From the NCBI RefSeq assembly GCF_000026545.1, contig NC_011601.1: a stretch of 64,000 bases of DNA. The stretch is one strand, 5' to 3'. The DNA is from Escherichia coli O127:H6 str. E2348/69. GTDB taxonomy: Bacteria > Pseudomonadota > Gammaproteobacteria > Enterobacterales > Enterobacteriaceae. How positions within the stretch are numbered: position 1 is the first letter of the stretch; each line of letters opens with the position of its first letter. The position numbers are program-made. This document shows, one piece after another, positions 51,801 through 57,800 of the stretch.

Positions 51801-54800
51801 CTACGTCAGCTTAATTGTTTTTCTACAATAAATTCATAGCATTGTTGACATTAACAAAAAGTCTCATTAACGATGACATCCTTTCCCCTCCCTGTTCTGT
51901 TGTATAGAATCGTCCCCCTGAATACAGGTTGGGTTTTAACAATCAGCAGAGTGATGTTGTCAATAAGAAAAAGGTGATGGCAATAATTAATAGAATATAT
52001 GTTTTTTGATAAAAGTACCTATGACTTTTTCATTACGTACTACAGTGCGTGAGAAATAGATGGTTCTGCGGGCCAGACGTTTAATCCGGGTTCTCTGAGT
52101 CAAATTGTTTCGCCCAATGAGCTTTTGCAGGAAAATGAGTGATCTGATCCTGAAACTCAGCAAAAGTTCGATTTATTCAATAAAGCCCGTCTGCGTTTCT
52201 CCGGCCTTAAAATATCAATCATCTGTTCTAAAAAACAGTATTAAGATTATCACTTATTTAAGTAATATTGGTTGTCTGTAGACTCAGAGGGCTAGAATAC
52301 ATGTGCCTGTGATACTCAACTGAGAGTTCCATGACAGATACTTTATATTTTTTCAATTAGAATAATAATTATATACATCTAGAAAATGTTTTCCGCTAAA
52401 CTCACTTAGGTATTCTGCTACCTTTTTGGGGCATATGTTTGCATTATTTATCTCGCAATCAATTGCTAATGCTAGGATAATTGACATTTTATATGGGCTG
52501 GTATCAAGTTATTTTAAATGACTTGCCGTATAATTTGACAACATGATCATGTCTATGACTGATCGCTAATGATAACCCCGTAAAATCATAATGTTTTGCA
52601 GTCAATAACTCTTCGATAAAATCCTTTGATATATCTAACATTATTAGTGAGTCAAAAAAAGACTGAATCGTATTAATATCTCCATTTTGATACGCAAGAA
52701 GTAATCCTGGTGCACCATCATAATTTCTCGCCTCAAGCATCCTGATTATCTCACCTCTTGTCAAATTACTATTGCCAAGTACGCCACAATATGCTTTTAT
52801 TGCGTCTGCATGACCATTTTTAAATGCAGAAAATAATCCAGGAGTATATTTATTAGAGCTATGCGCCTCATATTTAAATGCTGAAAGCAAATACTCTAAA
52901 TCTATATTTTTATCAATAGTATCCAGAACTAAGTTACCATAACCCTTAATAGCTTGAGCATGTCCATTTTGAAGGGCCTGATATAAACCAGGTATGGTTC
53001 CATCCAAAGTTCTTGCAGATAATATATGTATTAATTCTTCTTTGTTAAGATTTGACTTTTTAATTAAAGTACCATATTCATCAATTACATTATTATGTCC
53101 ATTTTGTAGAGCTAAAAGTAACCCAGGAACATTATTAACATTTTTTGATTCACACAAGATTTTCATCTGAGATTTTGTAAGATCTGTAAATCGAGTATCG
53201 TTATATACCTTTTTTATTATCTCTCTTAGTCCTGCTCCCATAGCAAAATTAATAACAACACCTTGGAGAATATTATCAGGTAATTTTTTATAAACACATT
53301 ATTGTTGTCATTCGATTTTGTTTTATCCACAAAAAGTGACAGTGTGTCTTCTTTTAGCCCATAACATTTCAGACATTGCTCACTAAGAAAATCATATGCT
53401 GTCAGGTTTATTATATCACAAATGTTATTAGTGCAAAAAAATACTCGTTTATGCGTCGCGGTCTGATTGGGATCATAGAAATTAATAACAAACTTATTTT
53501 CCTTGTCGTTTTTTATTTTAATACCCAGAGCCATTGCATGTCCGGGAGAATGAACTTCTAATGATGTGTGAGATTTATTCTCTTTCTCAAGTTGAAGAAA
53601 AAGGTTATATATAACGCTTCCCCAAGATTCATTTTCAACAAAATATACATCACCCTTAATATTATTTGTCCCCTTGTTTTCCTGAATTACAATAGCTTTG
53701 CTTAATAATTGAGGAGATGAAAATGTTTCGTAGTCTATCTTTCCTGAATTACTACAAAAAAACTCACTCCAATATGATGCTATATGTCGACACCATATGA
53801 TTTCTCCATTGCAATCACTAACCTTTCCATTTAGATTTATGCTGGCATCTCTCTTTTTTGATAAATAAGGGTGATTGTTTTTTGAAATATATTCAACATA
53901 ATTTGATGCCGATTTGTTCATTATTGGCATATGTTTGTATCCTTTCTATGAGTTTTACACCTGACAGTGGAAAGAATATATTCTACTGATGTTTGTAATT
54001 TAAACTATTCATGAAGAATTTTACTGTTGTACAGTACCAGATACTCAGCCAGTTTCAAATTGAACATATTCAGCTATTCAAAGAGCAATTCTTCATTAAA
54101 CTCAATAAATTGTTCCCTCAGTGTTCGGTTAAAATACTCACTCATGGCATTTATTTTCGGCGTATAGAGATAAGTCCATACGAACCCGACGTTGGATTCC
54201 TGTAGCGTTTTGTTGAATTTTCCCGAGAACTCTGTGTCCATCATCAGTGATGATCTGGTTGATTCCAACAAGGAACAACTGGGCTACACAGCAGAAGAAA
54301 TGCCTGATGATATCACTTTTAAGCGACAGTACGGCCAGAGCCTGAGCGTAGTTGCTGTGTTTGTCGAGCATGGTAATAAAATAACGGTACAGCTCGCCAT
54401 TCTGAGCTCAATAGTATCCATGCCACTGAGCTTACAGGTCTTTATCGGGCGATAGTGCTTTATTCTTCGGGGCTTTGTGGATGATTTTTCGAAATGTTCA
54501 TGATAGTTAGGCAAAGCTACCGCATATCATTTGCAAAAATGACAGATAGATATACTTCAATTTGAATCTTAACAATTAGTATGGGAATGCTGTCAATCCT
54601 CTGTATGCGTCCACCACATATTGAAATTTTTGTTCTCTAATATATTCCATGGGCGTCAAGAGTGTGAGGCCTGTGCTGTTATACAGCACCAGACGTTGTC
54701 CCCCCATCTTTGACCTGTCTCTTGAGCAGATCTCCTGATCAAGAGACTTCATCACCAGGTAACCCTCAGCCATATCCTGAAGTCTGAACCAGCCATCCCA

Positions 54801-57800
54801 CATAACTACCCAACCGGGGCGGCTTGTGCGTTTGCTGTCATGCCATAGCCCCAGTTTAGCCAGTTTCAAACAGGCCCATTTCAGTGTCGGCGTCTGTAAC
54901 AGAAGCGGTTTTCCTTCCAGCTTAACCCACTGTAGTTTCCATTCTGTCGGCGTCAGTATTTTCTCACAGCTGTCATTTTGTGTTTCTTCACTGATACCTA
55001 CCTGCCGTAGGCCCAGCACCCGCACCGCGATAACCACCATGCGCTCAAGGTTATCCCGGGTCTGCATTCGCAGCGATCCACACATGTACCACCACTTTTC
55101 CACGCTTTGTGGTATTCCTCTGTCAGCCAGCGTTGCTCGTAATGGCTGATGATACGTCGCGCATCGGCGGCACTCGCCACTTTTTCTGATGTCAGCGGAT
55201 ACCAGCAGGCTCCGTCCTCTCCTGCTCCCGGCAACAGACATACGTGAGCGAGAGCGCCTGGTCGCTGTTGTCGGGATTTTTTATGCTGACTTCGCTGTAA
55301 CTCATGAGCATCCGGGCCTGGCGGGCTGCCCGCCCGCCTTTTTGCATCACATTCAGCGTGTGGCTTCCCGCGGCTGACGTTATAATGCAGGTAATGCCAG
55401 ATATCCGCTTTCCGGTCACAGACAGTGATTACCCGTTTCTGTATCTCCCCCAACCGTTCGGCCATGCGCTCCGAAGCCTGCTGCCAGCGGTAACTTTCTT
55501 TTTCTTCACAGGGACATTCTTTTCGCTGGTGCTTAACACCGTAGGTGTCCGTGGCACGACTCCAGCGCTGCTGTTCAATAAGACCGACTGGCAGGACGCT
55601 GTCGGGGATATGTTCTCAGATGTAAGGTTCTGAACAACAACTACGGGCTGGCTCTTTTTTGTCCGTCAGGGCGTCGAGCTGAGCCGTGCATTACTCTCCA
55701 ACTGAGTGGACGCATGCTGCCAGTTAATGGCTCCGCTGAATGATGCCCTGTACCGTTATTTGATGAACACCCGCCAGGGAACCATTCACGGCACGTCGAT
55801 CGGCGAACTGCTGGCGTGGATCAAAGAAGATGAAAACCGTCGCAAAGACGAGATGGGCTGATTATTGAAGGCCATAAAGCCTTGGATGACGAACTGCCCG
55901 CCGATGCGCTGCGTACGCTGGCGCTGTTGTAGGCTGTCAGGGATACTGTCCCACGAATGGCCACCTGCAAGCTCCAGATGACCATTTTTGTCATTCTCCA
56001 CAACGAGTTAGTTCTTCTGTAAGCGTCAACGTAGCACCGTATTGGCGCTTATTTATTGGTGAGTACTACGTTCCATGGCAGGAGTTCATCAACTCGGTTG
56101 GAAGGCCATTCCGGCAGTACGTTCAGGATATGGCGCAGATACGCTTCCGGATCGATACCGTTCAGACGGCAGGTGCCGATCAGCCCGTACAACAGTGCTC
56201 CACGCTCGCCGCCGTGATCGCTGCCAAAGAACATAAAGATGGTATGACCTTTATATACTCACTATAGCATTGGTGGGATATTCCAGAGGAGGTCATTATG
56301 CATTCGGAAAATATTGCAGCTTACATCGGGCTGGATGTACATAAAGAAACGTTGGCGGTTGCTATTGCTGCACCTGAACGGCTTGGCGAAGTTCGTTATT
56401 ATGGTACGATTAACAACGAAGCCCAGGCTGTACGTCGATTATTTCAGAAATTGCAGGGACTTTACGGAAACATTCTTTCCTGCTATGAGGCTGGCCCCTG
56501 TGGTTTTGGGCTATATCATCAACTCACAGCGATGAATATAAAATGCCAGGTTATTGCCCCTTCCCGGATACCAAAATCACCGACAGACAGAATCAAAAAT
56601 GATCATCGGGACGCAATTTCTCTTGCCAGGTTACTGCGGGCTGGTGAACTTACCCCTGTCTGGATCCCTGACCTGACTCATGAAGCTATGCGGGATCTAA
56701 TCAGAGCCCGTGCAGCAGCTAAACGAGACAGCAGAGTTGTCCGACAGCGAATTCTGAGCATGCTATTGCGAACAGACAAACATTATGCTGGAAAGCACTG
56801 GACAGGAAAACACCGAACCTGGTTAGCTAATCAATCATGAACCGCCCCGGGAATCCTGGAGACTAAACTCCCTGAGAAAGAGGTAAACAGGATGACTAAA
56901 AATACTCGTTTTTCCCCCGAAGTCCGTCAGAGGGCGATTCGTATGGTTCTGGAAAGTCAGGGCGAATATGACTCACAGTGGGCGGCAATTTGTTCCATTG
57001 CCCCAAAGATTGGCTGTACACCGGAGACTCTGCGTGTCTGGGTACGCCAGCATGAGCGGGATACCGGAGGCGGTGATGGTGGGCTCACCACCGCTGAACG
57101 TCAGCGTCTGAAAGAGCTGGAACGTGAAAATCGTGAACTGCGCCGCAGTAACGATATCCTTCGCCAGGCTTCCGCTTATTTTGCGAAGGCGGAGTTCGAC
57201 CGCCTCTGGAAAAAGTGATGCCACTGCTGGATAAGCTGCGTAAGCTGTACGGGGTCGGACCGGTATGCAGTGAACTACATATTGCCCCGTCAACGTATTA
57301 CCACTGTCAGCAACAGCGACATCATCCGGATAAACGCAGTGCCCGTGCGCAGCGCGATGACTGGCTGAAGAAAGAGATACTGCGCGTATACGATGGGAAT
57401 CATCAGGTATACGGTGTGCGTAAAGTCTGGCGTCAGTTGTTACGGGAAGGAATCAGGGTAGCCAGATGTACAGTGGCGAGCCTCATGGCGGTTATGGGAC
57501 TTGCCGGTGTTCTCCGGGGTAAAAAGGTCCGTACGACCATCAGCCGGAAAGCCGTTGCCGCAGGCGACCGCGTAAACCGTCAGTTCGTGGCAGAACGACC
57601 TGACCAGCTGTGGGTGGCTGATTTTACTTACGTCAGCACATGGCAGGGCTTCGTCTATGTGGCGTTCATCATTGATGTGTTTGCCGGATACATTGTGGGG
57701 TGGCGGGTCTCATCGTCCATGGAGACGACATTCGTGCTGGATGCACTGGAGCAGGCGTTATGGGCCCGTCGACCGTCCGGCACGGTCCATCACAGTGATA

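What the first reader, a model, noticed from the sequence alone, without database searches (positions are those of the whole stretch)
54715..55620. Second, partial copy of the IS50-like element in inverted orientation about 43 kb away
Roughly 900 bp of near-identical sequence (3' transposase region plus inside-end-like terminus) lies on the opposite strand relative to the intact copy at 10.5 kb. Inverted repeats of this size are substrates for RecA-mediated inversion of the intervening segment (agp to the effector island). The partial copy has lost its stop codon and 5' half.
Basis: seen in the sequence. Interest (0 to 1): 0.35.

Follow-up and report, generated by a model that had tools for sequence, protein, structure and literature searches.

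The report
Decayed ISEc13 insertion-sequence relic in island IE2
The flagged stretch is a dead, truncated remnant of the Tn5-like insertion sequence ISEc13 that came in with a virulence-effector gene module; it is already annotated as a pseudogene, and there is no sign that it has ever flipped the 43 kb between it and the intact copy.

Summary
The window is E. coli O127:H6 EPEC E2348/69 (NZ_LT827011.1, 1088001-1152000).

**Observation: confirmed, with corrections.** An 893-bp fragment (54715-55607, minus strand) matches the 3' two-thirds of the intact 1550-bp ISEc13 at 10536-12085.
- Identity is 95.7%, not near-identical.
- The fragment has four internal deletions (92, 1, 1 and 12 bp).
- It has lost 551 bp (36%) at the 5' end, and its stop codon (TGA to TGC).
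- It keeps the end that resembles the IS50 inside end, matching 18 of 19 bases.

**It is not a copy of the 10.5-kb element.**
- The O103:H2 island carries an orthologous relic with three of the four deletions, the stop loss and 21 of the 38 substitutions.
- The relic's junction with its flank occurs in 589 of 5426 complete E. coli genomes, including O157:H7.
- Only the 5' truncation is specific to E2348/69. It marks the right edge of a 16.2-kb effector module (lifA-like, nleE2, nleB*, espL*) set into a CFT073-like island backbone (IE2).
- Lineage-specific substitutions look neutral (24% synonymous against 23% expected).

**Inversion is possible in principle but unobserved.** All three E2348/69-derived assemblies are collinear. 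The chromosome holds about 28 other ISEc13 copies; the one compared (on pMAR2) is 99.9% identical to the intact copy, a far better partner.

Verdict: an ordinary IS relic, already annotated. Low interest.

The parts
10536..12085 (+). Intact ISEc13 (IS4 family, IS50/Tn5-like), 1550 bp, inserted between agp and yccJ
   Evidence: PGAP annotates it as an 'IS4-like element ISEc13 family transposase'. Left end is CTGTCTCTTATACACAAAT and right end is CTGTCTCTTGATCAGATCT. The same insertion is present in strains A21 and FDAARGOS_144.
10701..12074 (+). ISEc13 transposase gene, 457 aa, intact
   Evidence: ORF. Pfam finds Tnp_DNA_bind, DDE_Tnp_1 and a Dimer_Tnp_Tn5 match just below its cut-off. Full-length match to Tn5 transposase structures, E = 5.5e-84.
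10527..10535 (.). Left copy of the 9-bp target-site duplication GCGTGAAGC
   Evidence: Read directly from the flanks.
12086..12094 (.). Right copy of the 9-bp target-site duplication GCGTGAAGC
   Evidence: Read directly from the flanks.
54715..55607 (-). ISEc13 relic (the finding): IS positions 552-1550 with four internal deletions, 95.7% identical to the intact copy, non-coding
   Evidence: PGAP lists an 'IS4 family transposase' pseudogene here, frameshifted and missing both the N- and C-terminus. Only a sub-threshold DDE_Tnp_1 fragment remains.
54715..54733 (-). Retained right (inside-end-like) terminus of the relic, CTGTCTCTTGAGCAGATCT. The T to G change at 54726 removes both the transposase stop codon (TGA to TGC) and one GATC site.
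   Evidence: The same change is present in the O103:H2 relic.
55373..55374 (.). Junction of the 92-bp internal deletion (IS 786-877); shared with the O103:H2 relic
55033..55034 (.). Junction of the 12-bp internal deletion (IS 1220-1231); shared with the O103:H2 relic
55220..55221 (.). 1-bp deletion (IS 1031); shared with the O103:H2 relic
55077..55078 (.). 1-bp deletion (IS 1175); specific to E2348/69
55607..55608 (.). Truncation junction: IS position 552 abuts the CFT073-like island backbone (ATATGTTCTCAG...). Found only in E2348/69.
   Evidence: Found in 2 of 5426 genomes. Junction read against CFT073.
54008..54490 (-). IS481-family transposase fragment next to the relic's inside-end tip; part of the conserved module scar
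   Evidence: Annotation. The junction is conserved in 589 genomes.
39368..55607 (.). 16.2-kb effector module (lifA-like, nleE2, nleB*, espL*, IS1, IS481 and ISEc13 relics), absent from the CFT073 backbone. The relic forms its right boundary.
   Evidence: CFT073 is contiguous across window 39367 and roughly 55600. Gene content.
12086..54714 (.). 42,629-bp segment between the inverted copies (yccJ, wrbA, rut, putAP, efeUOB, phoH, and most of IE2), which a crossover would invert
   Evidence: Coordinates. Gene content.

Best explanation
The 893-bp stretch is an inert, decaying relic of an ISEc13-lineage element (IS4 family, Tn5/IS50-like). It sits in the cluster of IS fragments that borders the espL-nleB-nleE effector module of integrative element IE2 in EPEC E2348/69.

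**Shown**
- The element was already dead in the common ancestor of this module and the OI-122-type modules of EHEC. That ancestor already had the 92-bp and 12-bp deletions, a frameshift and the stop-codon loss.
- In the E2348/69 lineage the relic additionally lost its first 551 bp, exactly where the 16.2-kb module abuts a CFT073-like island backbone. It also gained one more frameshift and 17 substitutions whose pattern looks neutral.
- The intact copy between agp and yccJ is an independent insertion with its own 9-bp target duplication. It is shared with strains that lack the island.

**Inferred**
- The inverted-repeat relationship is an accident of island acquisition.
- The relic encodes nothing functional and cannot transpose, because it has one end only and no transposase.
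- It could in principle recombine with any of the roughly 28 other ISEc13 copies. That would be homeologous recombination of low efficiency, and it has not happened in any sequenced E2348/69 derivative.
For: **Identity and anatomy:**

**Already annotated as an IS4 pseudogene:**

**Orthology with the O103:H2 relic**
- Same 92-bp, 1-bp (position 1031) and 12-bp deletions.
- Same A1539C stop-codon loss.
- 21 of 38 substitutions shared.

**Distribution**
- The junction of the inside-end tip with the IS481 fragment is present, at 80% coverage or more, in 589 of 5426 complete genomes, including O157:H7. Spread-sampled rows show about 97% identity.
- The truncation junction is present only in the two wild-type E2348/69 assemblies. 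It coincides with the module/backbone boundary defined against CFT073.

**Substitution pattern**
- E2348-specific changes: 4 of 17 synonymous (24%).
- O103-specific changes: 4 of 13 synonymous (31%).
- Random expectation: 23%.
- Shared changes: 11 of 21 synonymous (52%), which suggests divergence while the ancestor was still active.

**The intact copy is independent**
- 9-bp target duplication GCGTGAAGC.
- The same insertion is in A21 and FDAARGOS_144, where phoH is followed directly by pgaD with no island.

**No inversion**
- CP059840.2 places both copies on the same strand, at the spacing expected to within 1 bp.
- The engineered strain EPEC1 is 100% identical and collinear except for a 14,374-bp deletion that removes the relic. 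The strain was viable enough for infection assays; the paper lists growth curves in a supplementary figure that I did not see.

**Copy number:** 28 places in the chromosome match the 5' part of the IS that the relic lacks; 29 match the whole element.
Against: - Only three assemblies of one strain carry both copies, so a low-frequency or subpopulation inversion cannot be excluded. No read-level data could be examined.
- Twelve identity tracts of 30-65 bp exceed the minimal length for RecA-dependent exchange as I recall it, so recombination is not impossible.
- A 221-codon ORF (54576-55241) spans the region equivalent to the C-terminal dimerisation domain. Its expression was not tested.
- I did not establish whether the second effector island of E2348/69 (IE6) carries a similar relic.
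Confidence: 0.9

Rival explanations
1. One reading: the intact ISEc13 and the relic act as a pair of inverted repeats. RecA-mediated recombination between them inverts the 42.6-kb segment from yccJ to the effector island and generates structural variants.
For: - 893 bp of homology in inverted orientation.
- Uninterrupted identity tracts up to 65 bp, twelve of them 30 bp or longer. This is above the roughly 25-30 bp minimal processing segment for RecBCD/RecA exchange (my knowledge: Shen and Huang 1986).
- The annotated genes in the segment are metabolic, transport and island genes, none that I recognise as essential, so an inversion would probably be tolerated.
Against: - 4.3% divergence plus four indels. 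Mismatch repair strongly suppresses homeologous exchange at this divergence (my knowledge: Rayssiguier et al. 1989).
- LT827011, CP059840.2 and EPEC1 are all collinear.
- About 28 other ISEc13 copies exist in the same chromosome; the one compared, on pMAR2, is 99.9% identical to the intact copy, so this pair is among the poorest substrates.
- A crossover almost anywhere would transfer the relic's defects into the only intact copy at this locus. Nothing would be gained by switching.
Confidence: 0.06
2. The relic was produced in situ from the copy at 10.5 kb, by a second transposition into the island followed by truncation, or by aborted transposition.
For: It belongs to the same IS family, and the strain has undergone an ISEc13 expansion to about 28 copies.
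Against: - The relic shares three deletions, the stop loss and 21 substitutions with the O103:H2 island relic.
- Its flank junction is found in 589 genomes of unrelated lineages, including rows with a single ISEc13-matching place.
- The compared active copies in E2348/69 are 99.9% identical to each other, whereas the relic is 95.7% identical to them.
Confidence: 0.01
3. The relic has been co-opted in one of two ways. Its C-terminal ORF, which covers the dimerisation region, could act like the Tn5 Inh protein and poison ISEc13 transposase. Alternatively, its nearly intact inside end could be used in trans by ISEc13 transposase for RecA-independent rearrangements.
For: - A 221-codon ORF at 54576-55241 covers the region that aligns with the Tn5 dimerisation domain in the intact protein.
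- The terminal 19 bp match 18 of 19.
- The geometry mimics Tn5, with the inside ends facing each other.
Against: - No Pfam domain is detected in the 221-aa ORF.
- Its first roughly 55 codons are out of frame relative to the transposase.
- E2348/69 has a lineage-specific extra frameshift, and the substitution pattern is neutral.
- The outer end needed for a composite transposon is deleted.
- An engineered deletion of the relic produced a viable strain.
Confidence: 0.03

Closest known systems
ISEc13 (ISfinder name; IS4 family, IS50/Tn5-like group)
   Same: - 95.7% nucleotide identity over 893 bp to the intact ISEc13 in the same window.
- Same right terminus, matching 18 of 19 bases.
- PGAP labels the intact copy 'IS4-like element ISEc13 family transposase' and the relic 'IS4 family transposase' pseudogene.
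   Different: - The relic lacks IS positions 1-551: the left end, the DNA-binding domain and, by alignment to Tn5, the first catalytic Asp.
- It has 106 bp of internal deletions.
- It has no stop codon and no target-site duplication.
IS50 / Tn5
   Same: - The ISEc13 transposase aligns end to end with Tn5 transposase (E = 5.5e-84) and has the same domain set (the dimerisation-domain match is just below Pfam's cut-off).
- 9-bp target duplication.
- The right end is identical to the IS50 inside end over 19 bp, and the transposase stop codon lies inside it.
- The pair's geometry (inverted, inside ends facing inward) mimics the Tn5 composite.
   Different: - ISEc13 is a distinct element, not IS50. 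The alignment to Tn5 transposase is full-length but clearly divergent.
- The left end matches the Tn5 outside end at 17 of 19 bases.
- The relic's outer end is missing, so the pair is not a composite transposon.
Degenerate ISEc13 copy in the OI-122-type effector island of EHEC (O157:H7, O103:H2, O111, O121, O45), next to espL2-nleB-nleE
   Same: - Orthologous: same flank junction to the IS481 fragment.
- Same 92-bp, 1-bp and 12-bp deletions and the same stop loss.
- 96.6% identical to the O103:H2 relic.
   Different: - The EHEC version keeps the 5' part (IS positions 1-785), giving 1445 bp in O103:H2.
- The E2348/69 IE2 version is cut at position 552 and joined to a different backbone.
IS-mediated chromosomal inversions by homologous recombination between inverted IS copies (for example IS-flanked inversions described in E. 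coli and Shigella genomes)
   Same: Two homologous IS sequences lie in inverted orientation on one replichore, 42.6 kb apart.
   Different: No inverted isomer was observed. The repeats are homeologous (95.7%) and one is a truncated relic.

Membership tests
ISEc13 / IS4 family, Tn5-like insertion sequence (intact copy 10536-12085) | DDE transposase with the Tn5-type domain set (N-terminal DNA-binding, DDE catalytic core, C-terminal dimerisation) | tested here: met
   Pfam results:
- PF14706, E = 1.3e-19.
- PF01609, E = 2.9e-7.
- PF02281, E = 4.6e-5 (24.1 bits, just below the 26.7-bit cut-off).

Full-length alignment to Tn5 transposase 1MUH/4DM0, E about 5e-84.
ISEc13 / IS4 family, Tn5-like insertion sequence (intact copy 10536-12085) | Short terminal inverted repeats starting CTGTCTCTT, and a 9-bp target-site duplication | tested here: met
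   Ends are CTGTCTCTTATACACAAAT and CTGTCTCTTGATCAGATCT. Target duplication GCGTGAAGC lies at 10527-10535 and 12086-12094.
ISEc13 (relic 54715-55607): is it a derivative of this IS? | Nucleotide identity to the reference element above the ISfinder isoform level (about 90% DNA, as I recall the rule) | tested here: met
   95.7% over 893 aligned bases.
ISEc13 (relic 54715-55607): is it an autonomous or mobilisable IS? | Intact transposase gene and both terminal repeats | tested here: not met
   - The 5' 551 bp, including the left end, are missing.
- Four deletions, two of them frameshifting; the stop codon is lost.
- Only a sub-threshold DDE fragment remains.
- PGAP calls it a pseudogene.
Composite (Tn5-like) transposon formed by the two copies | Two IS copies in inverted orientation, each with a functional outer end | tested here: not met
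   The orientation is Tn5-like, with inside ends facing inward. The relic's outer end (IS positions 1-551) is absent.
Recombination-generated invertible segment | Inverted repeats long and similar enough for RecA-dependent exchange | tested here: inconclusive
   893 bp, 95.7% identity, longest identical tract 65 bp, four indels. Exchange is possible in principle but the substrate is poor.
Recombination-generated invertible segment | Both orientations observed among isolates or reads | tested here: not met
   LT827011, CP059840.2 and EPEC1 are all collinear. No other genome among the 5426 carries both junctions. Read-level data cannot be tested with these tools.
OI-122-type effector module (espL-nleB-nleE with a lifA homologue) and its IS scar | Relic adjoined through its inside-end tip to the IS481 fragment downstream of espL | tested here: met
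   Window 54000-55607 aligns at 96.5-97.4% to O103:H2 12009 and many EHEC genomes. The junction is found in 589 genomes. The module's gene content matches the published description of IE2.

The most novel reading that the evidence does not exclude
The relic's almost intact inside end (18 of 19 bases) is still recognised in trans by transposase from the roughly 28 active ISEc13 copies. It pairs with the inward-facing inside end of the agp-yccJ copy. This would drive RecA-independent 'inside-out' events (deletion or inversion of the 42.6-kb segment carrying the IE2 effectors). Alternatively, the relic's C-terminal ORF acts as an Inh-like inhibitor that restrains the ISEc13 expansion.
Probability: 0.03. 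Interest if true: 0.3.

Novelty: already known. Interest (0 to 1): 0.07.

Why it matters
It matters little. The relic is a routine IS pseudogene that RefSeq already annotates.

The modest value is historical. The relic is a molecular scar showing that the IE2 effector module of E2348/69 shares ancestry with the OI-122-type modules of EHEC, and it pinpoints the module's right-hand junction with a UPEC-like island backbone.

For people who engineer or assemble E2348/69, the practical point is different. The roughly 28 other ISEc13 copies, not this relic, are the more likely repeats for rearrangement or mis-assembly.

Tried and rejected
1. **Literature.** A search for ISEc13 returned only MGE-survey papers that mention the name once each. 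The E2348/69 genome paper (PMC2612414) is not held. A search combining 'E2348 69', IE6 and inversion returned irrelevant herpesvirus papers. No report of this inversion was found.
2. **Island name.** I first assumed the island was IE6. I rejected this because the espL and nleB pseudogenes, the 56-residue-shorter NleE and the lifA-like gene match the published description of IE2.
3. **Link to pMAR2.** I tested whether the 'methyltransferase' fragment next to the truncated end links the relic to the pMAR2 plasmid ISEc13, which splits a methyltransferase gene. Only the IS part aligns, so there is no link.
4. **Target duplication around the O103:H2 relic.** None found (ATCTTTGAC against GTTACAGGT), so the original insertion site cannot be reconstructed.
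5. **EPEC1 deletion.** I considered that the relic's absence from LT903847 might be a natural IS-mediated deletion. It is the engineered effector deletion of strain EPEC1.
6. **RNA genes.** Rfam and tRNA scans of the window found nothing at or next to the relic.

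
Full report
**Source and identity of the element**

The window is identical to Escherichia coli O127:H6 EPEC E2348/69 'variety 2', NZ_LT827011.1 positions 1088001-1152000.

The element at 10.5 kb is annotated there as an 'IS4-like element ISEc13 family transposase'. Its features are:
- It spans 10536-12085 (1550 bp).
- It is flanked by a 9-bp direct duplication, GCGTGAAGC.
- It encodes an intact 457-aa transposase with the Tn5 domain set (the dimerisation-domain match is just below Pfam's cut-off).
- That protein aligns over its full length to Tn5 transposase structures, E = 5.5e-84.
- Its right terminus, CTGTCTCTTGATCAGATCT, equals the IS50 inside end as I know it. The same string occurs in a primer for the Tn5 nptII promoter region.

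So 'IS50-like' and 'inside-end-like terminus' are both apt.

**Check of the observation**

The repeat finder reports five collinear inverted blocks between 11087-12086 and 54714-55607. Pairwise and multiple alignments define the partial copy as follows:
- It spans 54715-55607 on the minus strand (893 bp) and equals ISEc13 positions 552-1550.
- It has 38 substitutions, giving 95.7% identity.
- It has four internal deletions: 92 bp (IS 786-877), 1 bp (1031), 1 bp (1175) and 12 bp (1220-1231).
- The longest uninterrupted identity is 65 bp.
- The stop codon is indeed lost (TGA to TGC, window 54726). This change is also the single mismatch in the terminal 19 bp.
- The missing 5' part is 551 bp (36%). 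It includes the left end and the DNA-binding domain.

RefSeq/PGAP already lists the stretch as an IS4-family transposase pseudogene, frameshifted and missing both termini.

**What it is**

The relic lies in the effector island that carries a lifA-like gene, a 168-aa NleE, and frameshifted nleB and espL. This matches the published description of integrative element IE2 of E2348/69 (PMC5685641), not IE6 as I first assumed.

The relic and its left flank (an IS481 fragment, then espL) align at about 97% to O103:H2 strain 12009 and many other EHEC genomes.
- In O103:H2 the same IS is 1445 bp and retains its 5' part.
- It shares with the E2348/69 relic the 92-bp, 1-bp (1031) and 12-bp deletions, the stop-codon loss and 21 of the 38 substitutions.
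- The junction between the inside-end tip and the IS481 fragment occurs in 589 of 5426 complete E. coli genomes, including O157:H7.
- The full espL2-IS481-IS block occurs in 582 genomes.

So the element was already dead in the ancestor of these effector modules and has been carried along passively.

The substitution spectrum agrees with this:
- Changes shared by both relics are 52% synonymous, consistent with divergence while the element was still active.
- E2348-specific changes are 24% synonymous and O103-specific changes 31%.
- The random expectation is 23%.

**Origin of the truncation**

The junction at 55607/55608 is found only in the two wild-type E2348/69 assemblies. The sequence to its right is 93.5-94% identical to an island in CFT073, Nissle 1917 and other strains.

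In CFT073 that sequence directly follows the Gp2-type gene, whose homologue ends at window 39367. Relative to that backbone, window 39368-55607 (16.2 kb) is therefore an inserted module. It holds the lifA-like gene, nleE2, nleB*, espL* and the IS1, IS481 and ISEc13 fragments. The cut end of the relic is its right boundary, with only 3-4 bp (GGG/GGGG) of shared sequence at the joint.

**The intact copy has a separate history**

The agp-yccJ insertion, with the same flanks, is present in strains A21 and FDAARGOS_144. In those strains phoH is followed directly by pgaD and there is no island. The two copies were therefore brought together by island acquisition. They are not a duplication.

**The inversion hypothesis**

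The pair is a conceivable substrate, with twelve identity tracts of 30 bp or more. Four points argue against it.
1. Divergence is 4.3% and there are four indels. Mismatch repair suppresses exchange at that level (established knowledge, not tested here).
2. CP059840.2 has both copies on the same strand at the expected spacing to within 1 bp. The engineered strain EPEC1 (LT903847) is 100% identical and collinear apart from a 14,374-bp deletion (window 41858-56231) that removes the relic. The window itself is the third assembly. No inverted isomer exists in the data.
3. The chromosome has 28 places matching the IS 5' part that the relic lacks, and 29 matching the whole IS. Of these copies, only the one on plasmid pMAR2 was aligned; it is 99.9% identical to the agp-yccJ copy.
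4. A crossover would move the relic's defects into the intact copy, so no functional switch is plausible.

The geometry mimics Tn5, with inside ends facing inward. However, the relic's outer end is gone, so the pair is not a composite transposon.

**Verdict**

This is an ordinary, already annotated IS relic. Its origin story (a copy of the 10.5-kb element) is wrong. Its mechanistic suggestion (RecA-mediated inversion) is possible in principle but unsupported. Interest is low.

Noticed in passing
whole genome of the window's source (NZ_LT827011.1); window 10536-12085 is one copy: E2348/69 carries about 28 ISEc13 copies with a 5' end, plus 2 ISEc13-matching places on plasmid pMAR2. This is close to the maximum of 31-32 places per genome among 5426 complete E. 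coli genomes, where the median is 1-2. It points to a lineage-specific ISEc13 expansion.
   Followed up: partly
window 39368-55607: IE2 is a mosaic. A 16.2-kb effector module is inserted into an island backbone that in CFT073 and Nissle 1917 is contiguous from the Gp2-type gene to a methyltransferase/IS66 fragment. The left junction (about 39367) was not analysed in detail.
   Followed up: partly
window 50203-50709 (nleE), 50758-51746 (nleB), 52353-53930 (espL): NleE here is 168 aa, 56 residues shorter than the 224-aa O103:H2 protein. A roughly 160-bp gap appears in the BLAST alignment. nleB and espL are frameshifted pseudogenes. This matches the published description of IE2.
   Followed up: yes
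window 7161-7504: 3.4 tandem copies of a 101-bp unit lie between torD and cbpM. Rfam identifies three naRNA4 (CssrE, REP325-type) elements. This is a known feature.
   Followed up: yes
window 56019-56086 and 62101-62168: Two 68-nt direct repeats (93% identical) begin GTAAGCGTCAAC. From memory they look like IS66-family terminal sequences. They lie 6 kb apart and bracket ISEc45, IS3 and IS100 fragments.
   Followed up: no
window 62268-64000 and beyond (seen in L003 1-12101): Downstream of the IS cluster the island carries an M48 peptidase gene and a type I restriction-modification system with an embedded DarT/DarG toxin-antitoxin pair. A TOTE-system primase fragment lies at 39515-39844. Together these form a defence-gene cluster.
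   Followed up: no
window 30613-30806 (minus strand): Rfam match to Ysr251 (188.7 bits) antisense within phoH.
   Followed up: no
L007 (pMAR2, CP059841.1) 3584-5705: The pMAR2 copy of ISEc13 is 99.9% identical to the chromosomal copy. It interrupts a plasmid methyltransferase gene.
   Followed up: partly
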